From the NCBI GenBank assembly GCA_963716985.1, contig OY970323.1, forward strand, positions 1,696,001 through 1,760,000: a DNA stretch of 64,000 nt, read 5' to 3'. The notes under the pieces were generated by a model that worked only from the letters and a program-made list of their open reading frames with translations, was not told where the DNA came from and searched no databases. Within the stretch, counting starts at the first letter, position 1. Each line of letters starts with the position of its first letter. Positions 35,657-54,664 of this stretch are shown piece by piece. Source of the stretch: an uncultured bacterium. Lineage in GTDB: Bacteria > Chlamydiota > Chlamydiia > Chlamydiales > SM23-39. A program made the position numbers and the translations under genes.

Positions 35657-36073
35657 ATGTCGCAATTAGCCATCCCTGAACATAGATTTTTTCAAGGGGA
35701 AAATCCAAGAGAACCAACTTTTTTTTCCCGTTCAACTGGTTCTAGTCAAGTTCGAGTTCTCAAGGTCACACCTATTTCTCCCACTCCAGACTTTCCCATA
35801 CCCATGGATCCCCTTATGATTAAACCTATCGGAATCCTTATGTTCAGACTTTTGGATGCCGTTTTTAAAGGAAAAGCGCAACCATTCATCGAAAACAATG
35901 GACAACTCGTGTTCGTCAACACACCGCCTATGCCCAAATTGGTTCGTGATCTAGGGGGAGAAACAACTACTGTTGAGATCAATAATCCTAAAGTGCGTTC
36001 TATTGTCGATGAACTCTTTCGATTATATCCACCTCAGGTCAAACAAATTTGCATCGCATCGTCGTTAGAATAA
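35657..36073 (+). CDS. Hypothetical protein, tandem paralog A
   Basis: AGGAG RBS; near-identical termini to 36279-36704. Confidence 0.75.
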   Translation: MSQLAIPEHRFFQGENPREPTFFSRSTGSSQVRVLKVTPISPTPDFPIPMDPLMIKPIGILMFRLLDAVFKGKAQPFIENNGQLVFVNTPPMPKLVRDLGGETTTVEINNPKVRSIVDELFRLYPPQVKQICIASSLE

Positions 36074-36278
36074 CCCGCAAAAAACTGGGGACGATTTTTT
36101 ATCGTATCGTCCCTGGATTCTTTTCAGAGAAAGCGGATTTTGCATCTTCCAGTGAAGCAATGTTCTTCAAAATATCCTTGCGGCCCGTCTTTGCAGAAAA
36201 AAGAGATTATTTCATAGAAAAAAACTTCTCCTTTTGGCATAATCTTTTCAATTTTTAAAAAAAAATAACAGGAGTTTT

Positions 36279-36704
36279 ATGTCGCAATTAGCCGTCCGTA
36301 AATATAGATTTTTTCAAGAAGAAAACCCAAAAGATGCAAGTTTTTTTTCCCTTTCAACAGGTTCTGCTCAAGTGCGAGTCCTCAAGGTCACACCTCTACC
36401 CTCCCCTAAATACACGAATCCATCCGATCTTAGGCGCATCGGAATCCTTGCGAGCAGAATTTTGAGTTTCTCGCTTCAAGGAAAAGTGAAACTTTTCATC
36501 GAAAAAAATGAACGACTTGTGCTCATCAGATCAACGGATGGGCAGCCTTTTAACAATTGTATTCATATTCAAGGAAAAGTAAGAATTTATGCTGCGATCG
36601 AAGATCCAATCCTTGCGAATAGAGTAAATTCCATTATCGACGAACTCTTTCGATTATATCCAGATCAAGTCACACAAATTTGCATCGCATCGTCGTTAGA
36701 ATAA
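36279..36704 (+). CDS. Hypothetical protein, tandem paralog B
   Basis: MSQLA...STGS.QVRVLKVTP and SI.DELFRLYP.QV.QICIASSLE shared with paralog A. Confidence 0.75.
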   Translation: MSQLAVRKYRFFQEENPKDASFFSLSTGSAQVRVLKVTPLPSPKYTNPSDLRRIGILASRILSFSLQGKVKLFIEKNERLVLIRSTDGQPFNNCIHIQGKVRIYAAIEDPILANRVNSIIDELFRLYPDQVTQICIASSLE

Positions 36705-36730
36705 CCCGCAAAAAACTGGGGACGATCTTT

Positions 36731-38143
36731 TTACCTTATCGTCCCTGGATTCTTTTCAGAGAAAGCAGATTGTGAACCTTCCAATGAAGCAATGTTCTCC
36801 AAAATATCCATAAGGCCCGCCTTTCTTCCGATGATCTTTTTTTGCGAATCAAAAATGAGAAGCGTCGGCATCTCTCGAACGCCATATTTTTCGGCAAGGG
36901 CCAACTGATCATCAACATCGATTTTCAACAACTTGACCCTTCCTTGAAACTCTTTGATTTTTTGATCCAAAAGAGGGGCAAGTCTTTTGCAAGGAGGGCA
37001 CCACTTGGCATAAAAATCGACCAGGACAATGCCTGAAAATTCCTTGAGCTCGTTTTGGAACTGCAATGCATCTGTAATTTCTACGACGAAGGAGGATCTC
37101 TTTTTTTCTTCTTGCATTGCTTTCATCTGTTGTTTTGGAGGAGAAAAAGCGGCAATGTACTGCTCCGCTTGTATAGCGGCAATCGCTCCCCCTGCGGCAG
37201 AAGTGATGGCCTGCTTGTACAACGGATCGGCGATGTCTCCTACTGCAAAAATGCCGCTTTGCGAAGTTTCTTGCCCTTTTTTGAGAAGGATATATCCTTC
37301 CGCATCGAGCTCTAACTGCCCTTTAAAAAGCTCCGTGTTGGGATGAGACCCAATACCTAAGAACACACCATCCACCGGAAGAGTCGTTTTTTTCTGAGAG
37401 GCCGTTTGAATCAAAAGGCGAGACACCCTCTGGTTTCCACCCTCGATGGCTAAGACCGTCGTATCAAAAAGGACATGAACGTTTTTTTTCTTCAAAACCG
37501 CCTCTTTTCTTTTCTCGTCTTTTACCTGAAAGCCGTTTTTTCGAACGATGAGGGTGACCTTTTCACATAGAGAAGAGAGATATTCCGCTTCTAAAATAGC
37601 CGCATCGCCCCCTCCAACGACGGCCACTTTTTTCCCCCGATAAAAAGCTCCATCGCAAAGTGCGCAGTGGGAAACACCCCTTCCCCAATACTCCTTCTCT
37701 CCGGGAACGGAAAGACGGTTGGGGGAAGCTCCCATTGCAATGACGCAGGAGGAGGCGTAAATCTCCCGCGTCTTTTGGTCCAATAATCCTCTCGCCACAA
37801 TTTTGAAAGGCTTTTGGGTAAAATCGACTTGCACGACCTCTTCAGGAAACATGCGCGCGCCAAAACCCTCAGCCTGTTTTTTTATTTTTTCGATCAAAGA
37901 TGCGCCGGAAATGTTCGTCTCTCCCGGCCAGTTTTCCACACAGTGTGCTTGCAGAAGAGCGCCTCCGGCGTCTTTCCCCTCGATCACATAGGGAGTGATG
38001 CCTCCTCTGCTTAAATAAAGCGCCGATGAAAGGCCTCCGACCCCTCCTCCTAAAACCACAACAGGCAACACTTCTTTCTCGGCAAAAGAGAAGCTAGAGA
38101 AAGACAAAAAGAAAAGAAAGAAAATCCAGCGATGTGAGCGCAT
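36731..38143 (-). CDS. Thioredoxin reductase-thioredoxin fusion with N-terminal signal peptide
   Basis: GGGVGG FAD loop; GVSHCALCDG; GGGDAA.EA; FAVGD..D..YKQAITSA; C-terminal VDFYAKWCPPCK. Confidence 0.9.
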   Translation of the reverse strand: MRSHRWIFFLFFLSFSSFSFAEKEVLPVVVLGGGVGGLSSALYLSRGGITPYVIEGKDAGGALLQAHCVENWPGETNISGASLIEKIKKQAEGFGARMFPEEVVQVDFTQKPFKIVARGLLDQKTREIYASSCVIAMGASPNRLSVPGEKEYWGRGVSHCALCDGAFYRGKKVAVVGGGDAAILEAEYLSSLCEKVTLIVRKNGFQVKDEKRKEAVLKKKNVHVLFDTTVLAIEGGNQRVSRLLIQTASQKKTTLPVDGVFLGIGSHPNTELFKGQLELDAEGYILLKKGQETSQSGIFAVGDIADPLYKQAITSAAGGAIAAIQAEQYIAAFSPPKQQMKAMQEEKKRSSFVVEITDALQFQNELKEFSGIVLVDFYAKWCPPCKRLAPLLDQKIKEFQGRVKLLKIDVDDQLALAEKYGVREMPTLLIFDSQKKIIGRKAGLMDILENIASLEGSQSAFSEKNPGTIR

Positions 38144-38244: not shown

Positions 38245-40083
38245 ATGTTTCAAAAATTCTCTTTTAATTATCTATATTTTGGTTTTCTTTTCACTCTCTT
38301 CTCCCTGCTGCATTTTCTCTCTCTTCCCATGACAAAAGAAGGGCTTTTATTTCTGGGCGAATCTCTCTGTCAGACAACGCTTAGCATTTTCGCTTTGATC
38401 GCAGCCACGCTCTTGATCGAAAAGAAATGCTCTTTTTTTTACAAGCCCTGGATTGCCCTTCTTTTTTTCCTGCCGCTTCTCTATCTCATTGATTTCTTTC
38501 TTCTCTCCCTTATGGATGCTCCTCTGTCTCATGGAATCAACATCTTTCTCGGACAAGGAATCGGAAAACTTTTCGTCTCTCTTCGGGCCGCCAACATCAA
38601 TACGCCTCTTCTTGTCTTTATTTCCATCACCCTTCTCTCTCTGCCGCTATTGGCTCTTTGGATCGACTATCGGACCAAAAAATACACGCAAAAAAGGCCC
38701 CTCTATCTCTCTTGTTCGCATCTATTGAAATTCTTCGTTTTTTTTTCTGCCTTGCTGATGGTGTTCGACTATTCGATTTGTAAAACACTCTCTCTTTCCC
38801 ATCTGAGCCGCTTGGAGCGCCGGCTGCCTTGGGGAACGACCCTTTTTTCTCCGCCGCCTCTTTCTCTGATCTCCTTCGCCGATGCCCTCAACCGCCCTCT
38901 AGAGGAAAAGATCCCGTCCTTGCAATCGAAAGAGAATCTGCCAAACATCTACCTTTTTATTGTGGAATCGTTAAGAAACGATGCCATCACGGAAAAAACG
39001 GCCGCCCGTCTTTTTTCCTTTCAAAAGCAGAACATTTCTCTGCCCATGACCTTTGCTTCTGCCAATTTTTCCCCGATCTCATGGTTTTCGATTTTTCATG
39101 GACGCTTTCCGATCTATTGGAGAGAAAGGTTAGAAAAAAAAGGAAGCCTTCCTCTTTCTCTTCTCAAACAATTGGGTTATAAAATACACCTTTTTTCTTC
39201 TGCCGAACTCGAATATTTCCACATGGATGAATCGATTTTTGGGCCCGATCATCAACTGGCCGACGAATATTGCGCTCTTCCCCAAGAGATGGAGGTTTGC
39301 GCAAGAGATGCACAAGCGATCTCTCTTTTGCAAAACGCTCTTTGCCAAAAAGAAAATGGGAATGGCAACTGCTTCATTATTTTTCTAGACTCTACCCATT
39401 CGGAATATAGCTGGCCGAAAAACTTTCCGCCGCTTTTCGCCCCCTTCTCCTCCACCATCCCCTACCTTTTCTTAAGCCAAAGCCGCTCGTTTCTCCCCTG
39501 CGTCAAGAATCGCTATTACAATGCCATCCATTATATCGATCATCTTTTCGGATCTTTTTTAGACACGCTCAAGGAAAACCACTTAAGCGATTCTTCGATC
39601 ATCGTTTTCACAGCAGATCACGGAGAAGAGTTTTTTGAAGAGGGCGCTCTTTTTCACGGCACGCATCTCAACAATCCCCAAACGCGCATTCCGATCTATT
39701 ATCAATTTCCCAAGTGCGACTTAAAAGTCCAAACGGAAATGACCTCTCATATTGACATTTTTCCAACGCTGCTCCACTTCGTCTCGCAAGATCCCTCCCT
39801 CTCCTCTCTCTTCGACGGAGCTTCTCTCTTTGCTTCCGCTCGATGGCCCTATATCCTCACCGTGCATCAAAACGGAGGAAAGACTCCCTACATCATTTCC
39901 CTGCTCCACGAAAAGGGGCGTTTGATCGGAAAGCTGAAAAAAAATATTTTTGAGTCCAAGCAGTTTGAAATCATCTCCCTGAAAAACTTAAAAGATGAAG
40001 AGATAGAAAAAAACGACCCCTCGTTTCAAGAGCTGACGGGGGAGTTTTCCGATGTTTTCGCTCCCTTCTTCCGAAAAAGATGA
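38245..40083 (+). CDS. Membrane-anchored sulfatase-fold protein (YejM/LapC-like), paralog
   Basis: PNIYLFIVESLR; DSTHSEY; RYYNAIHYID; TADHGEEF; SHIDIFPT. Confidence 0.85.
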   Translation: MFQKFSFNYLYFGFLFTLFSLLHFLSLPMTKEGLLFLGESLCQTTLSIFALIAATLLIEKKCSFFYKPWIALLFFLPLLYLIDFFLLSLMDAPLSHGINIFLGQGIGKLFVSLRAANINTPLLVFISITLLSLPLLALWIDYRTKKYTQKRPLYLSCSHLLKFFVFFSALLMVFDYSICKTLSLSHLSRLERRLPWGTTLFSPPPLSLISFADALNRPLEEKIPSLQSKENLPNIYLFIVESLRNDAITEKTAARLFSFQKQNISLPMTFASANFSPISWFSIFHGRFPIYWRERLEKKGSLPLSLLKQLGYKIHLFSSAELEYFHMDESIFGPDHQLADEYCALPQEMEVCARDAQAISLLQNALCQKENGNGNCFIIFLDSTHSEYSWPKNFPPLFAPFSSTIPYLFLSQSRSFLPCVKNRYYNAIHYIDHLFGSFLDTLKENHLSDSSIIVFTADHGEEFFEEGALFHGTHLNNPQTRIPIYYQFPKCDLKVQTEMTSHIDIFPTLLHFVSQDPSLSSLFDGASLFASARWPYILTVHQNGGKTPYIISLLHEKGRLIGKLKKNIFESKQFEIISLKNLKDEEIEKNDPSFQELTGEFSDVFAPFFRKR

Positions 40084-40084
40084 C

Positions 40085-41146
40085 TCATTTTGACTTCGGA
40101 TTAAATTCCTTGAGAAGCCCATCCGCACTATCGGTAAAGGCCATCCATGTCTCCCTTGCTTCCGTGCCTTGCAAAGAATTGACATAACCCGCCAAATTTC
40201 TTGCCTCTTTCCAAAGAGTCACTTGAGGAGATTCTTGAAGAGGGAAAAAATAATCATAAATCTTCAGGTAGAGGGGAGATTCTCTATCAATGACAGGGCC
40301 GCAATCGTCGGGAATCTGTTCTAGTTCTCGCAGTAGGGAAAACCTTTCTTTTTCTCTTCGGGGAAGGTTGCGGAAATTTTTTTGCAGTCGTTGCATTTCT
40401 GCGATTTTCGGAAAAAAAATGCGAGGAAGATTTTTCCAGGTAGGTTTTGTGGAAGAGCGAAGAATACATTCGACCATCACCCGAAAGCATTCTTCTAGCG
40501 TAGCCGGTTCTGATCCGCTCACTTCTTGTAGATAACTTTGCTTCGTCACAATGGGTCTTTCCGTCTCTCGCGCAGGCGCAGGAGCTCTCCTTGAAAAAAA
40601 ATTCTTGAACACCGTCAAAAATTTCTCACCAGCTGTAGGAGGGGAAGGCTGAGAGGGCAAAGGACGGACGTGATTTCTTAGGACGGCTTGGCAGAAAAGC
40701 GCTCTCTGTTCGGCTGTTTCGATTCTTTTGCCCTCCGCCCAGCTATCAAACAGTGGAACGATTTTGTTATACACAAGGCACATTCCGCCCATCCCTAAGA
40801 GGATTTGCGCCCAAGTCTTCGATCCGATAGCAACACCTCCGAAAAGTCCGCAAAGAGGAAGGGCTACGTAGACTATTTTGCTGATTTTTTCCCCTCTCTT
40901 GCCCTCCGCCCATCTCCACAACCGCTGAACGATCTTAACACCAAGGTACATCCCGCCCATTCCTAAGGGGATATGCGCCCAACTCTTCGATCCGATACCG
41001 GCACCTCCAAATAGTCCAAAAAGAGGAATGACCATCCAGGCATAATTTCTGATTTTGTCAATCGTCGATGGACGTCTATTTTGTTCATAGAGTTGCATGG
41101 GATCTGCCACAACCGTTAATCCTCTGTCGACGACACTCTGAGCCAC
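40085..41146 (-). CDS. Inc-like hypothetical protein with duplicated hydrophobic hairpin
   Basis: GGAGG RBS + GTG start; two ~57-aa repeats PLxGLFGGxxIGSKxWAxIxLGMGGM...WAEGKR. Confidence 0.75.
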   Translation of the reverse strand: MAQSVVDRGLTVVADPMQLYEQNRRPSTIDKIRNYAWMVIPLFGLFGGAGIGSKSWAHIPLGMGGMYLGVKIVQRLWRWAEGKRGEKISKIVYVALPLCGLFGGVAIGSKTWAQILLGMGGMCLVYNKIVPLFDSWAEGKRIETAEQRALFCQAVLRNHVRPLPSQPSPPTAGEKFLTVFKNFFSRRAPAPARETERPIVTKQSYLQEVSGSEPATLEECFRVMVECILRSSTKPTWKNLPRIFFPKIAEMQRLQKNFRNLPRREKERFSLLRELEQIPDDCGPVIDRESPLYLKIYDYFFPLQESPQVTLWKEARNLAGYVNSLQGTEARETWMAFTDSADGLLKEFNPKSK

Positions 41147-41307
41147 ACCCCCCTCCTTTTTTCAAATCAATTTTAGCTAGATAGATTACCAGCTCTCAAA
41201 AGAAAAATACAAGATTTTGCGAACAGAGCGAAGAATCGAAGTTTCTTCCCCTTATTCGATCTTTTTTATATCCGCAAACTACTAACGATTACTCACATAT
41301 ATAAATC

Positions 41308-41360
41308 AATCGATAGCTCGATTAATTTTGCGGTTTTTTTAATCGACTGATCGATTAAAA
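41308..41360. promoter_or_regulatory. Twin palindromic operator-like sites
   Basis: AATCGA-N4-TCGATT at 41308-41323 and 41341-41356, just upstream of ATG 41368. Confidence 0.55.
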
Positions 41361-41367
41361 TAAGGTT

Positions 41368-42618
41368 ATGGCGACACGAGGTGAATTAAAAAAAGCTTTA
41401 CAGGACTGGCAGCAGTGGCTGAACAAAAACAGCCATTTGATCGTCCCCAGAAGCTCCCTTCTTAGTCAACAAAAGGATCTCTGCCTAGCGCTTACTGGGG
41501 TGAGGCGTTCCGGAAAATCCTCCATGACAGTCCAGTTGGCGCTGGGACGATTGGAGGAGACCTTTTTTTTTAATTTTGAGGATCCGATTTTTTTCCCAGG
41601 GGCCAGCGTTGAAGTACTTGATCAACTTCTCTCACTCTATGAAGAAGAAACAGGAAAGATGCCCAAGCTAGTAATTTTGGATGAAATCCAAAATGTCCAG
41701 GGATGGGAGCGGTGGGCGCGAAAAGCAATCGACTTAGGGCATTACCAAATCGTTATAACCGGCTCTTCTTCTCATTTATTGAGTTCCGAGATTGCGACAG
41801 CTCTTTCCGGACGGGTTATCGAACAAACTATCTGGCCCCTTTCCCTTTCCGAATATTTAACATTTTTGGGTAAAACGCCATCTACGAAGGGAGCTTGGTT
41901 ACGCGCATTAGAAAATTATCTGCGTTGGGGAGGCTTTCCAAAAGTCATCTTAACACCGGACGAAAATGATCGGATCATTTTATTAAAACAGTACCTTAGT
42001 GATATTGTGCTACGAGATGTTGTTGCAAGACACTCCATTAAAAACCAACAAGCCTTGCATCAAATAGTTAGTTTCTATTTAACAGGTGTGAGTTGTTTAC
42101 ATTCCTACAATTCCCTACGAAAAGCTTTTGAAATTTCGATTGAACTAGCCTCAACATTGACAGGTTATTTAACACAAGCTTTCCTTGTCTTTGAAATGAG
42201 CCGTTACCATCCCAATCTCAAAGTACAAGCCCGCGACCCTAAAAAAATTTACGTGATTGACACGGGCCTGCGCACAGTATCCCTGCAATCCAATCGAGAG
42301 GATTGGGGCCGTTTGGCGGAAAACGCTGTCTACTTAGAATTAAGGCGCAGGGGCAAACAAGCGTTCTATTATAAACAAGTGCAAGAAGTCGACTTTGTAA
42401 TCACAGAATTGGGAAAACCTGTAGATGCGATACAAGTGTGCTACTCCGATCTTGAGGATCAAGAAACGCGTAACCGCGAGATCAATGCTCTGCTAGAATG
42501 TTTGCGGGCCTTAGAACTCCCCTCGGGAAAAATATTAACACTTTCTTTGGAAGATGTGCTCTTAAAGGAGGAGAAAGCGATTCATCTCATCCCGCTCTAT
42601 CAATGGCTGTCTAAATGA
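41368..42618 (+). CDS. AAA_14 + DUF4143 ATP-binding protein
   Basis: GVRRSGKS; FNFED; LDEIQ; TGSSS.LLS.E..T.LSGR; WGGFP; PKKIYVIDTGL; EN.VY.EL; EVDF. Confidence 0.92.
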   Translation: MATRGELKKALQDWQQWLNKNSHLIVPRSSLLSQQKDLCLALTGVRRSGKSSMTVQLALGRLEETFFFNFEDPIFFPGASVEVLDQLLSLYEEETGKMPKLVILDEIQNVQGWERWARKAIDLGHYQIVITGSSSHLLSSEIATALSGRVIEQTIWPLSLSEYLTFLGKTPSTKGAWLRALENYLRWGGFPKVILTPDENDRIILLKQYLSDIVLRDVVARHSIKNQQALHQIVSFYLTGVSCLHSYNSLRKAFEISIELASTLTGYLTQAFLVFEMSRYHPNLKVQARDPKKIYVIDTGLRTVSLQSNREDWGRLAENAVYLELRRRGKQAFYYKQVQEVDFVITELGKPVDAIQVCYSDLEDQETRNREINALLECLRALELPSGKILTLSLEDVLLKEEKAIHLIPLYQWLSK

Positions 42619-42669
42619 GAGGACCTTTCAGCCAGACATGTTCTGATTTTGCGCCGGTTTCATCTGGTT

Positions 42670-42695
42670 TAGTGCGTAAAAACTGCGTAAATTGA
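42670..42695 (+). repeat. Integrase arm-type repeat (left); inverted partner at 44651-44676
   Basis: TAGTGCGTAAAAACTGCGTAAATTGA, containing tandem TGCGTAA. Confidence 0.6.
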
Positions 42696-42745
42696 TGTCG
42701 ACTTAGCAGATTTTATCTATGAAATTCAAGTTTGAATTCCCCAGT

Positions 42746-42766
42746 GTTCGATTCTCTCCACCTCCA
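42746..42766 (+). repeat. att-like core 1, tmRNA 3'-end-like
   Basis: GTTCGATTCTCTCCACCTCCA (T-loop plus acceptor 3' strand), followed by hairpin GGCCCGGG..CCCGGGTT + T-run. Confidence 0.75.
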
Positions 42767-42816
42767 AAAATACTAGGCCCGGGAAATACCCGGGTTTTTT
42801 ATTAGGAAAAGCTGCA

Positions 42817-43605
42817 ATGCCATTCTCACATTATGTTCCTCAATTTTACATAAGAAATTTTGGACTCAACGAAAAGCAAACCGCTAGATTTGATAAAAAA
42901 ACAGGTCAAAAAAAAGTAGTGCCTATTGAAAGCTTCTGCGGAGAGACTGACTACTTCGCATTCGATAAAGAAAGCCTAGACAATCTTCCCAAGCATCTCC
43001 AATGGATTCATCAAGACTCGATCGAAAATTTATTGGGCTCTGATATTGAAGGCCCTGTAAGCTCTATATTGAAAACTCTTATAGCTGAAAGAACGTTGCA
43101 AGCTATCTCAGAAAGCAATATCCGAATGCTTCTAGAATGGGGTGCATGGATGTTTATAGCCAACCCGCAATCCATAGCGCTAAGTTCAATTGAAACAATA
43201 ACGAATCACTACCTGGATATTGATCATACAAAACTCTCCAAAACAGAAAGACTGAAATTATTTATAGATCTTCATGAGCAGATAACTCCAATTTTCCAAA
43301 AACGAGGATGGATTCTCCAATTGATCGATCCAAATCATGGATATCTACTATCGAGTGATCGACCAGTCATGGTTGGAGGCAGGTCCCTGCAAGAGCTTCC
43401 ACAACTTTCAAATCAAACGATTATTTTCCCCCTATCTCCCCAATTAGTCCTCATAGGCAATAGCAATCCTATTTGGGGCTACGCCAGCAAACCCCTTGAA
43501 AGCACAAAAGAAGCTTCCCTCATGACAAATATTCTCACTCTAGCACAATCTTTTCGATTTATATTCGGGGCTGACATGAGTGACATAGACAATTTAGTGT
43601 CTTAA
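42817..43605 (+). CDS. DUF4238 domain protein
   Basis: HYVPQFYIRNF N-terminus; LSSDRPV; IIFPLSPQL. Confidence 0.85.
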   Translation: MPFSHYVPQFYIRNFGLNEKQTARFDKKTGQKKVVPIESFCGETDYFAFDKESLDNLPKHLQWIHQDSIENLLGSDIEGPVSSILKTLIAERTLQAISESNIRMLLEWGAWMFIANPQSIALSSIETITNHYLDIDHTKLSKTERLKLFIDLHEQITPIFQKRGWILQLIDPNHGYLLSSDRPVMVGGRSLQELPQLSNQTIIFPLSPQLVLIGNSNPIWGYASKPLESTKEASLMTNILTLAQSFRFIFGADMSDIDNLVS

Positions 43606-43634
43606 ACGACAAACCCAAGCTTTGAGAAATTTTA

Positions 43635-43654
43635 AATGCATTTATCCACCTCCA
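43635..43654 (+). repeat. att-like core 2 (degenerate)
   Basis: AATGCATTTATCCACCTCCA; matches cores 3 and 4 with 2 mismatches. Confidence 0.65.
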
Positions 43655-43755
43655 TTTCTCATTGACCTATGATTTTTCAAAAAGAGCTGGTAAACATTCT
43701 TCTGAACGTTGCCTAATTTTCTCTTTTTGAGTTATACAAAAATGTTAACGACAAC

Positions 43756-43827
43756 TATAATGTTTGTATTATCCCGCATGGAGACCCCATGCGAAAGCCA
43801 CGGGCTCCGGCCCGTGGTTTCTTTTTT
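43756..43827 (+). promoter_or_regulatory. -10 box plus two-hairpin leader ending in an intrinsic terminator
   Basis: TATAAT at 43756; CGCATGG/CCATGCG; CCACGGGC-TCCG-GCCCGTGG + TTTCTTTTTT. Confidence 0.6.
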
Positions 43828-43841
43828 CACTTGGATCGAAT

Positions 43842-44498
43842 ATGCAACCAAAACGGGTCGTATCTTTCGTAGATGGTTTCAATCTCTATCACGCTATAGA
43901 TAATCTTCGACGTCCAGAACTGAAATGGGTCAATTTGACAACTCTTTCTCAAGTATTTCTCAAACCTATTTCTGAAAAACTTGTCAGAGTATTTTACTTT
44001 TCTGCTTATGCCGATCATATGCCCGAACCAGTTCAAAAACGACAAAAGGCTTATGTGCAAGCTTTATCACTACAAGGTGTTCAACCAATTCTTGGAAATT
44101 TCAAAAGGAAAGATAGAAAATGCCCTGAATGCCATCATAAATGGATTGGACATGAAGAAAAAGAAACAGATGTCAATATCGCTTTGTATCTTCTCGATCT
44201 CGCTTATCAAGATGCTTTTGATCGCGCGCTGATCATTTCCAATGATTCTGATCTTTCCCCAGCTATTAGAATGGTCAGAAAACGTTTTCCTGAAAAATGC
44301 ATTACCACGGTAGTTCCTCCTAATTGCTTACACAGTAACGAATTGATTAGAGCCTCTTCCGATAAGACAAAAATCCGCGTAGAACATCTTGAACGTTGTC
44401 TTTTGCCAGAAGTTGTAACTGATGCTTCTCGCTTGATTTCAATATCACGCCCGAAGGAGTATGCTCCAGCTGTTTTAGCTGTTTCTTCAAAACCATGA
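43842..44498 (+). CDS. NYN-domain (PIN-like, LabA/DUF88) putative RNase
   Basis: FVDGFNLYH; EEKETDVNIA; ISNDSDLSPAI; CPEC insert. Confidence 0.92.
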   Translation: MQPKRVVSFVDGFNLYHAIDNLRRPELKWVNLTTLSQVFLKPISEKLVRVFYFSAYADHMPEPVQKRQKAYVQALSLQGVQPILGNFKRKDRKCPECHHKWIGHEEKETDVNIALYLLDLAYQDAFDRALIISNDSDLSPAIRMVRKRFPEKCITTVVPPNCLHSNELIRASSDKTKIRVEHLERCLLPEVVTDASRLISISRPKEYAPAVLAVSSKP

Positions 44499-44527
44499 TT
44501 ATTTTCATCGCCATTTGATCCCATCGG

Positions 44528-44556
44528 AAAGTTCTGAATGCATCTCTCCACCTCCA
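44528..44556 (+). repeat. att-like core 3
   Basis: AAAGTTCTGAATGCATCTCTCCACCTCCA, followed by terminator AAGGCTTCAGT..ACTGAAGCCTTTT. Confidence 0.8.
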
Positions 44557-44650
44557 ATCCAAATTAAGGCTTCAGTTTCGCGACTGAAGCCTTTTGTTTT
44601 TAGTGACATACAACTAGAAATTCACACCTAAAAATTCAGCTGCGCAAAGC

Positions 44651-44676
44651 TCAATTACGCAGTATTTACGCACTAG
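44651..44676 (-). repeat. Integrase arm-type repeat (right)
   Basis: TCAATTACGCAGTATTTACGCACTAG = near reverse complement of 42670-42695. Confidence 0.6.
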
Positions 44677-44845
44677 ACTGGATGAAATCAGAGCAAAACG
44701 ACCACTTCTTTTCACTTTTTTCGCTGTGGAGAAAAGTACTTCATCAAGAACTCTGCATACCAATTTTCAAGCTCCTGTCGGATTTTTTCCATCACTTCAG
44801 GAATAAGAACAATTTCCTGTTCAGATATGAATCCAGTTATCAATT

Positions 44846-46537
44846 GAGTGTGTTCGATTTGACTTCAAAAACCGAATTTATGATGCATTGATGGTTCGAT
44901 ATAATCTTTGCCGCTCCATCTCGATATAATATTCAAAATATTTATCCCAATCCCCGTTCTGATTAACCGCACGTAAATTTAGAATCGCCTGTACTCCTTC
45001 ATGCGTCCACTTCATGCCAGACCGATCGGTTCTGTTTTTTACGAGACTGCCACAAGCGCCCTCAACAACACCTGTGCCGATCGGATATCCCTTTTTTAAG
45101 TACTCGTCATATTTCATCATGTGCTTGTGATTGCTTAAATATGTGATCACTTTTTGCAGCATCGACTTCTGGCTCTCTTTCAGACCACGCTTGTTTTTCT
45201 TAAGAATTTGTCTCATGGCCCCTACGACATACCCAACTTTTCCCTCTAAAATCGCAAGCAGCTTGTCAGCAACCCATTGCTGTCTTCTTTGATCTTTCTC
45301 CCCATATAAGGCGGTTCCGCTTTCCCACAAATACTCAGTAGCATGAAAAATATCTAAAATATAAGCGTCAACGCGATGCTTCCATTTTCTTTTTGCCATC
45401 TCTTCTTTAAAGCGATTCTCAAGTGCCGAGGCTCCATCGATCAACACGATCATTTTTTTATCCTGCGCGGGATTTCTGTGTAATATCTGATCGGCAAGTC
45501 TTTCAAAGGCTTTTTCTTTGCCATCCATCGCAGCATGAACTTCTTTGTTAATAGGCTCTCTTGGTTCCAATTTTCCTGCTTCCCGTCTTTCTTTCTTGTG
45601 ATCGGCATACTCCGCTTGTTCTCGATCTGTATGCCAATGCATAAGGCTTTTTTGCATCTCCTGGGGCGTACGAGATTCGGGGTGAAATGTAAAATGAGAA
45701 GTCACCACTGCATCTCTTCGTAGCCCTTTCCTTTTATCGCCCTTTTCTCTGCGTACTTTTTTCTGTTTTGGTTCTTTATTAGGAGATCTTTCTTCCGGAA
45801 CCATGGGAATGCCTTTGCAATCCATTGTCACTGCTATAACCGAACCTTCTGTATCTTCAAATTTTTTGATTCCTTTATAGAAGCTATGAACATAAGCTGC
45901 TGCTCTCATAACCATAGACTGGATTGCTTCTGGCCATAGACAGATTCCGAAAATTTTGTCGATTGTGGATAAAGCTTCACGATACGGCTGAGAAGCGATC
46001 AGCTTAAGGGTCATGTCTTGTAAAGCGTAAGAAAACTTTCCTTCCGGCAGATTCAGCTGATGATCCAAAGGACACAGTCCTTCTCCAGATCCTTTTTTCC
46101 AATAATAAGCGCGTTTGATCTTAACAGGGCCAAAAATTGACAAATACTCTCTTTCTGATTCCGCTTTAAATGGAAGTTGTGCTCCTTGGGTGTTATACGC
46201 ACAGTCATTTGGTGTGTCCTGGAGGGAATCTAAATGCTCCTGTAAGATCTTTTTACCCATTTCTAATATTGTTGCATAAATGGTGTTCTCGGTCTTATGC
46301 AAGGAATCCTCTCTGATTGTGCTCAAATGTTTTTTCAAAACGCACAACAAGTTACCAGAAGATCCAATTTTGGTCTCAATATGATGCAGTTCCAGGAAAA
46401 AATCTCCATAACATATGCAAGTTACGCAAATGTTATGCAAAATTTTAGCTTTAAAGTAAAATATTTTTTATAAGAAAGGAGAAATTTTCCCTATGATGGA
46501 TAACGGAATGGGGATAGAAGTCAAATCGAACACACTC
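44846..46537 (-). mobile_element. ISKra4-family-like insertion sequence
   Basis: Perfect 21-bp TIR GAGTGTGTTCGATTTGACTTC; no flanking direct repeat. Confidence 0.85.
44878..46440 (-). CDS. ISKra4-family DDE transposase
   Basis: SIFG.V.I.RAYY; LIDGA; ILDIFHATEYLW; M.YDEYL.KGYPIGTGVVEGAC..LVK.R..SGMKW. Confidence 0.9.
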   Translation of the reverse strand: MHNICVTCICYGDFFLELHHIETKIGSSGNLLCVLKKHLSTIREDSLHKTENTIYATILEMGKKILQEHLDSLQDTPNDCAYNTQGAQLPFKAESEREYLSIFGPVKIKRAYYWKKGSGEGLCPLDHQLNLPEGKFSYALQDMTLKLIASQPYREALSTIDKIFGICLWPEAIQSMVMRAAAYVHSFYKGIKKFEDTEGSVIAVTMDCKGIPMVPEERSPNKEPKQKKVRREKGDKRKGLRRDAVVTSHFTFHPESRTPQEMQKSLMHWHTDREQAEYADHKKERREAGKLEPREPINKEVHAAMDGKEKAFERLADQILHRNPAQDKKMIVLIDGASALENRFKEEMAKRKWKHRVDAYILDIFHATEYLWESGTALYGEKDQRRQQWVADKLLAILEGKVGYVVGAMRQILKKNKRGLKESQKSMLQKVITYLSNHKHMMKYDEYLKKGYPIGTGVVEGACGSLVKNRTDRSGMKWTHEGVQAILNLRAVNQNGDWDKYFEYYIEMERQRLYRTINAS

Positions 46538-46827
46538 AAAAGAAGAGTACGCAAATAAGGAACAATCAACGGACCGAGCGCAATATTTTCATGCGTCTCA
46601 ATAAAAATCGTTCGGTAGCCTTCACTTTTTGCCAAATGCTCAATTTCATTGAGTAGTACGGTTTTGCCCACTCCGCGGAGCCCCGTCAACAACATACTCT
46701 TTTCAGACCGCTTTTGCTTGATCCGACCTAAAAGAATTCGGGCTTGCTCAAGAGCAGGGCCCCTCCCGACCAGTTCAGGCGGTGGAGAGCCAGCTCCAGG
46801 TGAAAAAGGATTTTTGATTGGATCCAT
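46538..46827 (-). pseudogene. AAA_16-type ATPase truncated by the IS
   Basis: NPFSPGAGSPPPELVGR; TGLRGVGKTVLLN; runs into the IS TIR. Confidence 0.85.
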
Positions 46828-46975
46828 GATGTCCTAGTTATATCAACTTATGCAAACTTATACCAGAAACCAGAAATAAGTAGGTATAAGAATGTATAGG
46901 TTTCTGCCAATGAAAGACTAAGATCCATGCGAAATTTTGAATAAATTGAATACTTTCATGATTTCAATCTGGTCA

Positions 46976-47004
46976 AAAGTTCTGAATGCATCTCTCCACC
47001 TCCA
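46976..47004 (+). repeat. att-like core 4
   Basis: 29-bp identity with core 3; followed by GGCCG..CGGCC + T-run. Confidence 0.8.
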
Positions 47005-47260
47005 TTTCGGCCGGGCTTACAAATTCGGCCTTTTTTCTTTTTAATGACATTGTATTCAAAATATTTGAGAGACAACCCTTCCGATGGAAAGAAAAATTTC
47101 CTTTTCTATGATCCAAGAACAGGAAAAAAAAATCTTTATCAAAACTTTTTTCTAAAATCAACAAACCCGATTTTTTCAATGACAAGATCTTTGGCATCCA
47201 GGTAAGATAAATGCAAAAGCAAAGGATTACGAGTGATTCTAATGCTGACTCAGGAGATCT

Positions 47261-48844
47261 ATGGCCATAGACGACACGGGATTCAGTAGAATTCGGTCGT
47301 TTTTTTGGCCCATCCATCGGCACGAGCTTTTCAAATTTGTGCCTATGCTGGCTCTTTTTTTTCTCATTTCTATCAACTATCACTTGCTTCGTATATTCAA
47401 AGATCCCCTCATCGTTACAGCTCCTAATTCAGGGGCCGAAGTCATCCCCTTTCTGAAAGTCTGGGCCATGCTTCCCACCGCTATCATCATGACCTTTATT
47501 TTTACTAAGATGACAGGCCTGTTGAATCGTGAAAAATTATTTTACTGGGTCCTTGGCTTCTTTCTGGTCTTTTTCCTGTTTTTTACCATTTTCTTATATC
47601 CTTATCGAGAAGCTCTTTTCTGCGACAAATTCGCAGACTTTCTGCAAGGCATCCTTCCCGCCGGTTTTAAAGGATTGATTGCCATGATCCGCTATTGGAT
47701 GTTTTCCCTCTTCTATGTCATGGCAGAATCCTGGAGCAACATCATTCTTTCCGTGCTCCTTTGGGGCTTTGCCAATTCCGTCACTTCCCTCACCGAAGCT
47801 AAGCGTTTTTATGCTCTTTTCGGCATCGGAGTGAATGCATCCGGCATGATTGCGGGAGAATTCGGAGAATCCCTGGCAACTCATATGGAATCGGCCGCCA
47901 ATTTCCCAAGTTTTCTCTCCTTTCTTGGAGCAAAGACCTCCTGGGATCAAACCTTTTTTTTCTTCATGGGAATCGTCATTGTCTGCGGTCTTTTGAGCCT
48001 CTTTTTGTTCCGGTGGATCCATCATAAAATTTTTACGGATCTTAGACCCCTCTCTCCCAATTTCTCTGCCCCAAAAAAACCAAAAATGTCCTTTCGAGAA
48101 ACCTTGCGCTACGTTGCCAAGTCCAACTATTTGCTCTATGTCGCCATCATTGTTTTAGCCTATAACCTGGTCATTAATTTGACAGAAGTTGTCTGGAAGT
48201 CGCAAATGAAAGAACTCTATCCGGATCCGGGAAAATATACGGCAAATATGAGCAAAGTTACTTTCTACACAGGCCTTTTAGCAACTCTCGGCTCCTATTT
48301 TCTCACCGGAAACATCATTCGACGATTAGGGTGGCGATGGGCAGCCCTCGCAACTCCTGTCATCATGGGGCTTACGGGTATTGGATTTTTCCTCTTTCTT
48401 TTCCTGCGTCATTTTGATTTTGCCACCCAGCTGACCTACTCTCTTTTAGGGGCATCCCCTCTTCTGATTTGCGTCTTTTTCGGCTCGCTGCAAAACGTTT
48501 TGAGCAGATCTGCAAAATATACCGTTTTCGACAGCACAAAAGAGATGGCTTTTATCCCCTTGGCTCCGGATTCAAGGCTGAAGGGCAAATCCGCGATAGA
48601 CGGCATTGGTTCGCGCTTGGGCAAATCGGGAAGTTCACTGATCCTGCAAATTCTTCTCATGTTCTTTTCCACGCCCATTGCCTGCTCTCCCTTGATCTTC
48701 ATTTTAATGCTCGTCACCATCGGCGGATGGATCTTCTCGATCAGAATCCTGGATAGAAAGTTTCAAGATCTAACACAGCCCAAAAAAGAAGAAGAAGATT
48801 CGGCCCCAAAGGAGGACCTTTCTCTTTCAGAAGAGCGTTCTTAA
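47261..48844 (+). CDS. Npt/TLC family nucleotide transporter
   Basis: WPIHRHEL.KFVPM; GAEVIPFLKVW; FYVMAESW; AKRFY; AKYTVFD.TKEMAFIPL; KGKSAIDGIGSRLGKSG. Confidence 0.95.
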   Translation: MAIDDTGFSRIRSFFWPIHRHELFKFVPMLALFFLISINYHLLRIFKDPLIVTAPNSGAEVIPFLKVWAMLPTAIIMTFIFTKMTGLLNREKLFYWVLGFFLVFFLFFTIFLYPYREALFCDKFADFLQGILPAGFKGLIAMIRYWMFSLFYVMAESWSNIILSVLLWGFANSVTSLTEAKRFYALFGIGVNASGMIAGEFGESLATHMESAANFPSFLSFLGAKTSWDQTFFFFMGIVIVCGLLSLFLFRWIHHKIFTDLRPLSPNFSAPKKPKMSFRETLRYVAKSNYLLYVAIIVLAYNLVINLTEVVWKSQMKELYPDPGKYTANMSKVTFYTGLLATLGSYFLTGNIIRRLGWRWAALATPVIMGLTGIGFFLFLFLRHFDFATQLTYSLLGASPLLICVFFGSLQNVLSRSAKYTVFDSTKEMAFIPLAPDSRLKGKSAIDGIGSRLGKSGSSLILQILLMFFSTPIACSPLIFILMLVTIGGWIFSIRILDRKFQDLTQPKKEEEDSAPKEDLSLSEERS

Positions 48845-48868
48845 CTAGCGCAAAAACATTGAAATAAT

Positions 48869-50116
48869 ATGACACAGGCTGTTGGCTTTTTCAAAATATC
48901 TCCTCCCCTCTTTTCGATCAATTCCAAGGCCATCTCTTTTTTCACCGATGCAAAAATAAAAATCGTTGTTGCCAACATTCTGTTTCTGCTAGGGATTTTG
49001 GCCATCGGAATTGCTACAGGAGGCTTCGGCTTTCTTCCCCATATCCTTCCCCTATCAGAGGTCTCGGTAAAAATCCTATCCCTACTTGGCCTCTTGAGCC
49101 CAATCGTGGGAATTTACTTGTTTCAATCGCTAGATTCTAGCTTTTCCACTTGCGTAAATGAGCCGCCGATCGGAATTGAAAATGTCTCGAACAACTGCTG
49201 GGCCAACTCTCTTCTTCAGTTTTGTCAAGCGGTGCCCGTGCTGAAAAATTTCTGCAAAAGCCAATGGTTTTGGCAAACTCTTCACCCAATCGGATCCTTC
49301 CTCGCCGAGTACGAGTCCGATCAAAACCGAAAGTCAGCCGTTTCTGCGGCAAACAGCCAAGCGGTCCGCGCATGTTTGAGCGCTCAATCAGTCTCCTATA
49401 TCGCAGCAAATGGCACGCGGGAGCGCTCCATCAGCTCTGACATGCACGTGCAATGCGATGCTTCCGAAGCTTTGTCCATTATCCTAAATCAAATGTCCTG
49501 CCCGGTAAAAATGCAAACCATCCACCGGTGCAAAAATCACGAAAGAGAATGGGTTTCCTCCCCTCAAGAATATCAGGACATGCCTAAAATTGAGCTCCCT
49601 CTGGGCCGGTCGCGCTCCTTTGTTCGACTCTTCGAGTCTTTCTTAAAAAGCACTCCTCAAGAGCCGATTGAAGGGATGGAAGATCCCATCACAAAGAAAA
49701 GAGACGGCCACGTAGTTTCCGAGGAGCGGCTTTTTCAAAGCGCGCCGCCCGATCTTTTCGTGAGCTTGGGCCGTTTTGCCAATCAAAGAACAAGCTGGCT
49801 TGGAGCAAGCTGGCTTGGTCGGCTCTTTGGCGGGGCCGATGTGGAACTTCTGAAAGTCGATGATGCAATCGACATTCCCGACGTCATTCCTCTCAAAGAT
49901 GAGTTCGTTCACACCCACAAGGGAGCGAACTATCAGGTTGACGCCTTTATCCAGCATAGAGGTAGCAGCCTCGGCCAAGGCCACTATGTAGCCTATGTCA
50001 AATCTCCCGAAGGCGTCTGGTTTGAATGTAATGATGCCCTTGTTCGCCGCATCTCCCTCTCGACTGCCGAAAGAGAGAGAGCTCGTGCCTACCTTCTGCA
50101 TTTTCACAAAGTCTAA
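48869..50116 (+). CDS. Eukaryote-like USP (peptidase C19) deubiquitinase with N-terminal hydrophobic hairpin
   Basis: Cys box GIENVSNNCWANSLLQ; QCDASEAL; His box IQHRG....GHYVAYVK....WFECND. Confidence 0.9.
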   Translation: MTQAVGFFKISPPLFSINSKAISFFTDAKIKIVVANILFLLGILAIGIATGGFGFLPHILPLSEVSVKILSLLGLLSPIVGIYLFQSLDSSFSTCVNEPPIGIENVSNNCWANSLLQFCQAVPVLKNFCKSQWFWQTLHPIGSFLAEYESDQNRKSAVSAANSQAVRACLSAQSVSYIAANGTRERSISSDMHVQCDASEALSIILNQMSCPVKMQTIHRCKNHEREWVSSPQEYQDMPKIELPLGRSRSFVRLFESFLKSTPQEPIEGMEDPITKKRDGHVVSEERLFQSAPPDLFVSLGRFANQRTSWLGASWLGRLFGGADVELLKVDDAIDIPDVIPLKDEFVHTHKGANYQVDAFIQHRGSSLGQGHYVAYVKSPEGVWFECNDALVRRISLSTAERERARAYLLHFHKV

Positions 50117-53385: not shown

Positions 53386-53473
53386 TATTATATTTTTTAA
53401 TTGAACATATTAAACTATTATGTTATGATAATATCATATTAATCAAAATTTTATATAAAAGAGGTTGGATAAA

Positions 53474-54664
53474 ATGTCACAAATAACTGATTTGCGTGCA
53501 ACAACATCAAGCGCCCCCGGAACAAGCCGCGAAGCGGCTTCACTTGCTACAGAGAAAAAAACATCACATGCTACAGCCTATATGTTTACAGCACTTAGCA
53601 TTGTAGCCCTCGGGGCTCTCGTAACAGGAGGCCTTGGCATCATTCCCACGGCAGGCTTCTTGGCAAAAACAACTCTTTCAGTTGGCGGAGTCGCGAGTTT
53701 CATCGCAGGAATGTTTTCAGTTCGATCAAACGAGCCTTCTCGCCCCTCCATTCAGTTTCCCATCGGAATTCCGAATGCTCAAATGAACTGCTGGGCCAAC
53801 TCTTTGCTTCAAATGTGCAGAGCCGTTCCCATGCTACAAGAGTTCTTGATCGGACAGAAAGAGAGAGAACTCTCTCCCATAGGATTGGTCCTCGCTCAAT
53901 ATGAAAATGATCAAGAAAGAGGACGAACGATTTCTCGGGCAGATAGTCAACAAGTTCGCCTCTGTCTCAGCCGGTTTTCGGACGGCATCAGCCGAGATGG
54001 GGCTGTGCAGTGCGATGCTTCGGAGGGCCTGTCCCTCATCCTCGAAAGAATGAACTCCCCAAAACTGCCCAAAATGCAAGCCATCTACCGATGCAAAAAT
54101 AAAGCACACGAATGGGTGACTTCCTCCGGTGTTTTTGACCCTATGCCAAAACTCGAACTAATCCTGGACGGCTCGCGCTCTTTTTTGCAAATCTTTGAAT
54201 CCTTCTTAAAGAAAAAGCCCAAAGAATCAGAGCATAATTACCAAGACCCCTCCACAGACACAAGAGATGGACATGTCGTTTCTGAAGAGCTGCTTTTTGA
54301 AAAAACTCCAGACGAGCTTTTTATTAGTTTGAAGCGTTTCGTCAATCAAAAAAAGGGATTTTTTACACGCCTCTTTTCAGACGCCTCCCACGAACTTATG
54401 AAAATCACAGACCCAATCGATGTTCCCGAAACCTTTCATCTAAAAGAGGAGTTCGTTCGGACACGCGAGGGTGCAGACTATCAAGTAGACGCTTTTATAC
54501 AGCACAAAGGACCCACTTGTAATGGTGGTCACTATATTGCCTATATCAAAGCGCCGGACGGAACCTGGTTTGCATGCGATGATTCCGATACACGCGCCAT
54601 GACAGCGGAAGAGGTAAAAGCCGCTCTATCCGACGCTTACATCTACCACTTCCATCGACTCTAA
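53474..54664 (+). CDS. Eukaryote-like USP (C19) deubiquitinase with N-terminal hydrophobic hairpin, paralog
   Basis: GIPNAQMNCWANSLLQ; QCDASEGL; LKRF; IQHKG....GHYIAYIK....WFACDDS. Confidence 0.9.
   Translation: MSQITDLRATTSSAPGTSREAASLATEKKTSHATAYMFTALSIVALGALVTGGLGIIPTAGFLAKTTLSVGGVASFIAGMFSVRSNEPSRPSIQFPIGIPNAQMNCWANSLLQMCRAVPMLQEFLIGQKERELSPIGLVLAQYENDQERGRTISRADSQQVRLCLSRFSDGISRDGAVQCDASEGLSLILERMNSPKLPKMQAIYRCKNKAHEWVTSSGVFDPMPKLELILDGSRSFLQIFESFLKKKPKESEHNYQDPSTDTRDGHVVSEELLFEKTPDELFISLKRFVNQKKGFFTRLFSDASHELMKITDPIDVPETFHLKEEFVRTREGADYQVDAFIQHKGPTCNGGHYIAYIKAPDGTWFACDDSDTRAMTAEEVKAALSDAYIYHFHRL

What the first reader, a model, noticed from the sequence alone, without database searches (positions are those of the whole stretch)
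41368..47040. Cassette-like array of defence-type genes delimited by four tmRNA-3'-end att repeats, with no integrase
Seen: direct repeats ending TCCACCTCCA at 42766, 43654, 44556 and 47004. The first includes the T-loop GTTCGATTCTC, cores 3 and 4 share 29 identical bp, and three are followed by different terminators. The intervals of 888 and 902 bp each hold exactly one gene (DUF4238; NYN RNase); the outer modules carry AAA ATPases. Known: the core matches my recollection of the chlamydial tmRNA 3' end, a common integrase target, and tandem integration leaves such repeats. Unusual: the modules are minimal single-gene units, and neither ssrA nor an integrase is in the window. Inference: an integron-like system in which a trans-acting tyrosine integrase stacks small anti-phage/toxin cassettes at a tmRNA-derived site.
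Basis: partly seen in the sequence, partly recalled or inferred. Interest (0 to 1): 0.85.

Follow-up and report, generated by a model that had tools for sequence, protein, structure and literature searches.

The report
Stranded tmRNA-island scars, recombinases gone
Four short repeats separating small foreign genes in this environmental chlamydia are scars left by mobile islands that normally stack up behind the tmRNA gene; this piece now lies far from that gene and has lost its enzymes, so it is an eroded form of a known way of collecting genes rather than a new integron.

Summary
The four repeats are real and match the 3' end of ssrA, which lies about 1 Mb away and has its own array. They are of two kinds. 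Cores 2-4 carry an extra 5' piece that, on the other strand, encodes the displaced C-terminal tail (W-R-W-R-D-A-F-R-T-F-x-W) of a large serine recombinase whose gene is split on integration; relatives hold intact 7-13 kb primase-bearing islands of this kind at ssrA. Core 1 is a T-loop site with arm motifs, tyrosine-integrase-like. Neither enzyme is in this genome. Across Chlamydiota the modules are small and often single-gene, but randomly oriented and shared at one end only (1 of 246 pairs end to end); deletion series lead from intact islands to them. The window block sits between two genes that are adjacent in relatives and has no att site at either outer edge: a relocated, eroded piece of an ssrA array. 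Closest known: Dehalococcoides ssrA islands, CIME accretion, ccr-less SCC modules. It is not an integron. The scan reported the same system before at this genome's ssrA locus; the displaced copy, the second att type and the module statistics are what this window adds.

The parts
40085..41146 (-). 353-aa orphan ORF; inside the interval missing from relatives, membership in the block unclear
   Evidence: No Pfam hit; found in 0 of 102 family genomes; no usable Atlas hit
41263..42618 (+). AAA_14 + DUF4143 ATPase gene (41368-42618) with about 100 bp of upstream DNA
   Evidence: Pfam, PADLOC PDC-S01 E 2.8e-99; 94% DNA identity over 41263-42613 to L069 of another genus, where a T-loop core follows it too
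42647..42690 (+). Arm-type motif (direct TGCGTAA repeat) before core 1
   Evidence: 44-nt inverted repeat with 44655-44698, 84%; same motif at fixed spacing before T-loop cores in relatives
42746..42766 (+). Core 1: T-loop plus acceptor-stem copy of ssrA 3' end; tyrosine-type right junction
   Evidence: 21 of 21 nt equal to ssrA 3' end at G000 758382-758402
42775..42797 (+). Terminator-like hairpin after core 1
   Evidence: 42743-42887 is 78.5% identical to the DNA right behind G000 ssrA
42817..43605 (+). DUF4238 gene (262 aa)
   Evidence: Pfam E 7e-29; 66% protein identity to the first gene behind ssrA in L328, broken paralogue behind G000 ssrA
43626..43654 (+). Core 2: degenerate serine-recombinase tail plus core
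   Evidence: 23 of 29 to cores 3/4; profile score 15.7; reverse strand reads WRWINAFKI
43733..44498 (+). NYN RNase gene (43842-44498) with promoter-like site and a conserved upstream hairpin (43795-43820)
   Evidence: Pfam NYN, PADLOC HEC-09 E 6.7e-54
44528..44556 (+). Core 3: serine-recombinase C-terminal tail plus ssrA core (attR-type scar)
   Evidence: Reverse strand reads WRWRDAFRTFRW; same as the joined recombinase end in L148, L149, L363, L365
44557..44698 (+). Conserved left end of a tyrosine-type module: terminator (44566-44593) and inverted arm motif (44655-44698)
   Evidence: 85-94% identical over about 145 bp in many relatives, both behind ssrA itself and behind repeats
44844..46539 (-). 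ISKra4-family insertion sequence, 23-nt inverted repeats, no target duplication
   Evidence: NF033572 over cut-off; three 99% copies elsewhere in G000 carry target duplications, this one does not
46540..46827 (-). 5' fragment of an AAA_16 ATPase gene cut by the IS; the rest is absent
   Evidence: 94% identical to an intact 397-aa copy at G000 1996066-1997259
46976..47004 (+). Core 4: serine-recombinase tail plus ssrA core
   Evidence: Identical to core 3 over 29 bp; reads WRWRDAFRTFDQ
47005..47059 (+). Terminator and stub of a further, lost module; block ends without an att site
   Evidence: 85% identical over 85 bp to the G000 ssrA-array repeat at 748051; hairpin region 29 of 32 nt like that behind G001 ssrA; homology to the G001 npt upstream DNA resumes at 47138

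Best explanation
The block is a displaced, eroded piece of a tandem array of the kind that builds up behind ssrA in Chlamydiota. (1) Islands of 7-13 kb encoding a large serine recombinase (LSR) and a primase integrate at the last 14 nt of ssrA. Their attP lies inside the 3' end of the LSR gene, so integration leaves the gene body reading into ssrA and moves its last codons to the far end, next to the last cargo gene; that tail plus the duplicated core is the repeat at cores 2-4. (2) A second, tyrosine-integrase island family uses the T-loop of the same target and leaves arm-motif junctions (core 1; left end after core 3). (3) Each new island pushes the older ones away; deletions then remove recombinase and replication genes while a terminator at one end and a cargo gene at the other survive, giving small chimeric modules. 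(4) A stretch of such an array was moved to the sulfatase-npt gap by a route that left no att site at its outer edges, and was trimmed further by ISKra4. It is now inert unless an incoming island supplies a recombinase. Steps 1 and the existence of decay series are shown by sequence comparison; the tyrosine integrase's identity is by association; step 4's route and all enzymatic activity are inferred.
For: ssrA end equals core; G000 has a second array of the same repeats behind ssrA and a third with the same tail joined to tRNA-Tyr ends. Hybrid repeat in 47 of 102 family genomes, 0 in the reversed control. LSR in 20 of 102 family genomes; many end inside tRNA or tmRNA 3' ends, L122 inside tmRNA. 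Core followed by LSR body in 30 of 401 phylum genomes; of these 30 loci 25 follow ssrA, 3 a T-loop repeat, 2 the tail, giving the continuous reading frame ...CPTNW-RWRDAFRTFxW; L365 holds two LSR islands in tandem at ssrA followed by small modules. Tail codons vary synonymously over 253 sites (Asp GAC 178/GAT 58; later Asp GAT 106/GAC 37; Trp 179). LSR domains Resolvase+Recombinase+Zn ribbon, neighbour Toprim+AAA_25. Decay: 14 of 187 modules keep LSR sequence, from 490 down to 29 residues; a 2.3-kb module is a 93%-identical deletion form of an 11.8-kb island, and a 936-bp one-gene module matches that island's right end. Arm motif sits before a T-loop core in 15 and after a core in 33 of 90 contexts; one tyrosine integrase clade lies next to it in L340, L342, L347, L348, L338, L214. 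Sulfatase and npt are adjacent in G001 and G012.
Against: 88 of 187 modules hold one ORF and median size is about 1.6 kb: many independent deletions must stop close to a terminator, which I did not model. One module pair is shared end to end (80.6%) at different array positions (L014, L233). The two positions of the first Asp and Ala codons were left free in my search patterns, so part of the synonymous signal is built in. AAA_14 and NYN homologues often lie between other genes with no repeat nearby, so cargo may enter modules by another route. No donor array with the same gene order was found. Repeats too degenerate to detect merge modules and bias against end-to-end matches.
Confidence: 0.78

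Rival explanations
1. Trans-mobilised cassette system: modules are discrete non-autonomous units that a visiting LSR or tyrosine integrase excises core to core and re-inserts at ssrA or at any core.
For: Half the modules are single-gene; repeats stay close to consensus across families; attR and attP differ only beyond the 14-nt core; LSR bodies follow repeats as well as ssrA (23 of 255 tail sites), so repeats are used as targets; one end-to-end pair; ccr-less ACME is mobilised by CcrAB (passages of PMC7029739).
Against: 1 of 246 pairs end to end against 41 right-only and 80 left-only; 0 of 69 multiply fetched modules lie in different flanks; orientation 45:43; no cognate enzyme in G000; no joints in four low-depth runs, which is uninformative.
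Confidence: 0.15
2. The block grew in place: arm-core 1 ... core 3-arm is the attP of a tyrosine element that landed here by another route and then served as a decoy ssrA target for later insertions.
For: The two arms face the cores as in an attP; core 1 carries the whole T-loop; off-ssrA repeats occur in 3 of 7 single-contig genomes with hits.
Against: The same arm-core-terminator-arm order occurs inside ordinary ssrA arrays (L165); DUF4238 is typically the first gene behind ssrA (L098, L328, L329, G000); no further arm or integrase remnant at either edge.
Confidence: 0.12
3. A classical integron or CALIN (attC array without intI).
For: Single genes between short repeats; toxin/defence-like cargo.
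Against: No protein over the integron-integrase cut-off in G000 (best 85 bits of 265); no RYYYAAC...GTTRRRY boxes and no stable hairpin (-0.9 to -4.0 kcal/mol) at any of the four repeats; cargo has own promoter-like sites and mixed orientation.
Confidence: 0.01

Closest known systems
Dehalococcoides ssrA genomic islands with serine integrase DsiB (PMC3146451; passages read)
   Same: Tandem islands behind ssrA bounded by repeats of its 3' end; CcrB-like recombinase on the reverse strand overlapping attL with its stop codon unclear; 15 islands lack the integration module and are called cis-mobilizable.
   Different: Here modules shrink to one gene; the missing recombinase tail is identifiable at each far-end repeat; a tyrosine system shares the target; module genes are primase-type rather than DsiA/ParB/Mom; this copy is 1 Mb from ssrA.
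CIMEs and tandem accretion (review PMC5704250; passages read)
   Same: Integration, decay to an element that keeps att sites but loses its enzymes, then integration of a newcomer at the att site; tandems of elements with different integrases.
   Different: Left ends here are mostly core+terminator rather than the LSR island's own attL, so most modules are chimeras; no conjugation genes were seen in the intact islands examined.
SCC composite islands and ccr-less modules such as ACME (PMC7029739, PMC13739063; passages read)
   Same: Large serine recombinase, repeated att sites at the 3' end of one essential gene, modules without recombinase between them.
   Different: Target is ssrA or tRNA-Tyr, not rlmH; LSR scores far below the Ccr cut-offs; modules are much smaller.
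Tycheposons (bioRxiv 10.1101/2020.12.28.424599; passages read)
   Same: Integrase plus primase/helicase plus cargo at tRNA/tmRNA genes; newcomers push older elements outwards, leaving partial tRNAs and fragmented integrases.
   Different: Mostly tyrosine recombinases in cyanobacteria; relatedness not tested.

Membership tests
Integron / CALIN | IntI integron integrase | tested here: not met
   TIGR02249: 0 over cut-off in G000
Integron / CALIN | attC hairpin with RYYYAAC and GTTRRRY boxes | tested here: not met
   0 of 4 repeats; folds -0.9 to -4.0 kcal/mol; box motif recalled
Integron / CALIN | Discrete, co-oriented cassettes shuffled as units | tested here: not met
   Orientation 45:43; 1 of 246 pairs end to end
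ssrA-GI-type LSR islands | [quoted passage not shown] | tested here: met
ssrA-GI-type LSR islands | LSR on the reverse strand overlapping attL | tested here: met
   In relatives; absent from G000 apart from tails and a 24-residue remnant at tRNA-Tyr
ssrA-GI-type LSR islands | Six-gene DsiB/DsiA/RecF/ParB/Mom module; orthology to DsiB | tested here: inconclusive
   Neighbours scanned were Toprim/AAA_25, RepB primase, SpoVG, AlbA_2; no direct comparison with DsiB was run
ssrA-GI-type LSR islands | Located downstream of ssrA | tested here: not met
   Window block is about 980 kb from ssrA on the opposite strand
CIME | No integration or transfer genes, att sites on both sides | tested here: met
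   Inner modules 42767-43654 and 43655-44556
CIME | att sites functional; cis-mobilised with a neighbour | not testable with these tools
   Needs recombination or transfer assay
SCC | CcrA/B/C recombinase and rlmH target | tested here: not met
   LSR 93.8 bits against CcrB cut-off 900; target is ssrA
Anti-phage defence island | Cargo with shown defence activity | tested here: inconclusive
   PADLOC candidates PDC-S01 and HEC-09; HEC-09 gave no protection in 10.1101/2024.01.29.577857; DUF4238 no PADLOC hit

The most novel reading that the evidence does not exclude
Chlamydiota run a phylum-wide cassette exchange without integrons: because the LSR's attR differs from attP only beyond the 14-nt core, visiting serine (and tyrosine) islands can excise and re-insert recombinase-less one-gene modules at any core, on or off ssrA, so that arrays such as this one are live libraries and the split LSR tail acts as a switch that completes the enzyme only in circles or behind another island.
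Probability: 0.17. Interest if true: 0.72.

Novelty: new variant of a known kind. Interest (0 to 1): 0.38.

Why it matters
It names the mobile elements behind a large share of accessory-gene traffic in environmental chlamydiae, a group for which my searches found no description of ssrA islands. It gives a 29-nt marker that counts past integrations, locates the missing C-terminus that the Dehalococcoides paper left open, and supplies exact attB/attP/attL/attR sequences for an untested serine recombinase clade. For this window it mainly shows that such arrays can be cut loose from their target gene. The principle (accretion and decay) is known.

Tried and rejected
Rfam found nothing over a gathering score in 39000-49000. 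Tyrosine recombinases of G000 (11 matches) lie at XerC/D-like loci, tRNA-Met/Pro arrays or elsewhere, none at ssrA or here; the nearest is 49% identical to the arm-linked integrase. One resolvase in G000 at 1917018 was not followed up. Simple inversion out of the ssrA array was rejected because both flanks are syntenic in G001 and G012. No pseudo-attB in the G001 empty site and no further arm motif at the block's edges. Viral contigs: 0 repeat matches and one distant LSR at 33%, so no helper phage found. No RNA holder listed. Four runs laid as low-depth contigs showed no joints, which is no evidence either way. ESM Atlas gave no usable hit for the orphan ORF. Literature searches for a description in Chlamydiae or of the split LSR tail: searches found none; most subscription papers are not in the library, and supplements of the papers were not read (those of PMC3146451 may give sizes of module-less islands). 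G119 was not scored. No structure or complex prediction was run; it would not change the verdict.
Full report
Observation. The four repeats are at the stated places. ARAGORN finds one tmRNA in the closed 2.07-Mb genome, at 758382-758744 on the minus strand, about 980 kb from the window. Its last 21 nt equal core 1; cores 3 and 4 share its last 14 nt and carry a different 5' part; core 2 is a decayed copy of that form (23 of 29; profile score 15.7, with 0 control hits above 10). Cargo calls are confirmed. Module 4 is mostly an ISKra4 element that has lost its target duplication and removed the 3' three quarters of an AAA_16 gene whose intact 94% copy lies at 1996066. Contigs from public runs bridge cores 1, 2 and 4.

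The repeat is not private to this locus. G000 has more copies behind ssrA (751131, 750841, 748791, 748051, 739829) and three copies in which the same 5' part is joined to the tRNA-Tyr 3' end (665283, 667297, 669458). The 29-mer with up to 3 mismatches is in 47 of 102 other genomes of the family, 0 in the reversed control, and the named collection scan returned it from several chlamydial families (127 stretches, scan cut at its limit).

What the 5' part is. [quoted passage not shown] A pattern of core plus LSR-body codons hit 30 of 401 phylum genomes, control 0. Of the 30 loci read, 25 follow ssrA, 3 a T-loop repeat and 2 the hybrid repeat; in the last two the frame runs ...CPTNW-RWRDAFRTFxW, so the 5' part of the repeat is the recombinase's own C-terminal tail. 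Cores 3 and 4 read WRWRDAFRTF. Over 253 sites the tail varies mostly at silent positions and keeps a Trp codon outside my search pattern in 179 (two of the silent positions were free in the pattern). A distant, unsplit LSR on a viral contig has a similar W..WDVFRT motif near its end. So attP lies within the LSR gene, and cores 2-4 are far-end (attR-type) scars. Intact islands measure 6.8-12.6 kb (5 modules with 468-490 of 501 LSR residues) and carry LSR, a Toprim/AAA_25 or RepB primase and cargo, the last cargo gene abutting the tail. L365 shows ssrA, one intact island, a second with a frameshifted LSR reading through the first one's tail, then small modules. G000 keeps only a 24-residue LSR remnant at tRNA-Tyr.

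Core 1 is of a second type. It keeps the T-loop and is preceded by a TGCGTAA direct repeat; the same motif, inverted, follows core 3 and its terminator. In 90 distinct contexts from fetched loci the motif precedes a T-loop core in 15, follows a core and terminator in 33, precedes a GAGA-n-TCTC site in 6 and has no recognised partner in 36, at fixed spacings. This is the anatomy expected of tyrosine-integrase att sites (my knowledge). One integrase clade lies next to the motif in six loci; it is at 82-100% identity in 5 of 102 family genomes and not in G000, whose nearest relative is 49% identical and sits at tRNA-Met. The assignment is by association only.

Cassettes or eroded islands? From all array loci fetched I cut 187 modules with a strict finder and 223 with a profile finder. 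With the strict set: median 1.67 kb, 88 with one ORF of 100 aa or more, oriented 45 with and 43 against the array, 14 with LSR sequence (29 to 490 residues), 2 with the tyrosine integrase. With the profile set, 246 pairs share 300 bp or more: 123 internally, 80 at the left end only, 41 at the right end only, 1 at both separately, 1 end to end (80.6%, first behind ssrA in L014, internal in L233); none of 69 modules fetched more than once had different flanks. RhuM genes with the same right end sit in modules of 1.2 to 4.8 kb; a 2.3-kb module is a 93% deletion form of an 11.8-kb island; a 936-bp one-gene module matches that island's right end. Left and right ends therefore assort independently, as expected from deletion between neighbouring islands. 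Against a pure erosion view: so many one-gene modules with a terminator right after the core is a regularity I did not model, and the sample is one genome per species. The window's own genes are widely exchanged (AAA_14 at 78-94% DNA identity in 13 other genomes plus L069), but most AAA_14 and NYN homologues shown have no repeat within 1.5 kb.

Why here? In G001 (same genus) and G012 the sulfatase and npt genes are under 300 bp apart; the G001 gap has no core. Homology to relatives starts at 41263 and resumes with host DNA at 47138; no arm or att marks either edge, and core 4 is followed by the stub of another module shared with the G000 ssrA array. DUF4238 is the first gene behind ssrA in L098, L328, L329 and, broken, in G000. 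The block thus looks like an inner stretch of an ssrA array moved as a fragment; route unknown. Displacement is not rare: 3 of 7 single-contig genomes with hits (G222, G362, G429) have repeats over 100 kb from ssrA.

Known systems. The design matches Dehalococcoides ssrA islands (DsiB overlaps attL, stop codon unclear, 15 islands without integration module; passages), CIME accretion (passages), ccr-less SCC modules (passages) and tycheposon islands (passages). Integron tests fail. HEC-09, the best match of the NYN gene, showed no defence in its defining preprint (passages). Searches found no account of these arrays in Chlamydiae or of the displaced tail, within the library's limits. Two earlier follow-ups of this scan on the ssrA locus of the same genome reached the serine-recombinase reading; I saw them after searches had led there, and they are not independent support.

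Verdict. Real feature; a variant of known accretion arrays, marked by one-gene modules, two recombinase classes on one target and displacement from ssrA. Interest 0.38; a live cassette-exchange reading remains possible (about 0.17).

Noticed in passing
window 43795-43820 and loci L320, L323-L326, L330-L333, L335: A GC-rich hairpin followed by a T run lies just upstream of the NYN gene and is conserved in 10 of 10 homologous loci checked, most of which have no att repeat and differ in neighbours; possibly an attenuator or RNA antitoxin travelling with a solo mobile gene.
   Followed up: partly
window 41263-42618; loci L307-L319: The AAA_14/DUF4143 gene with about 100 bp of palindrome-rich upstream DNA is 78-94% identical across several chlamydial families in unrelated gene contexts.
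   Followed up: partly
G000:C1:654418-669490: tRNA-Tyr array: a duplicated tRNA-Tyr gene and three LSR-tail repeats with tRNA-Tyr cores; one is followed by an LSR remnant. L099 has hybrid Tyr/ssrA cores.
   Followed up: partly
G000:C1:1376195-1377868 and 1344323: The same arm motif flanks an XRE-HTH plus RelE-like pair (names from sequence look, not scanned) at a site with no ssrA core, with a GAGA-7-TCTC junction on one side; suggests the tyrosine system also uses secondary sites.
   Followed up: partly
G000:C1:858784-970107: A large tandem array at tRNA-Met with six 3'-end copies and five tyrosine integrases.
   Followed up: no
L336 (G429:C1:808001-824000): An off-ssrA pair of repeats lies between two copies of a 140-aa gene in what looks like a V-type ATPase operon (name recalled), hinting at entry by homologous recombination.
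   Followed up: no
window 40085-41146: Orphan 353-aa ORF with an internal 56-codon repeat and hydrophobic stretches, ending 1 bp from the sulfatase stop.
   Followed up: partly
window 48869-50116 and 53465-54664: Two UCH-family deubiquitinase-like genes with hydrophobic N-termini, separated by two IS transposases; look like host-directed effectors.
   Followed up: no
window 35657-36824: Tandem duplication of a 138/141-aa gene with its downstream DNA, period about 632 bp.
   Followed up: no
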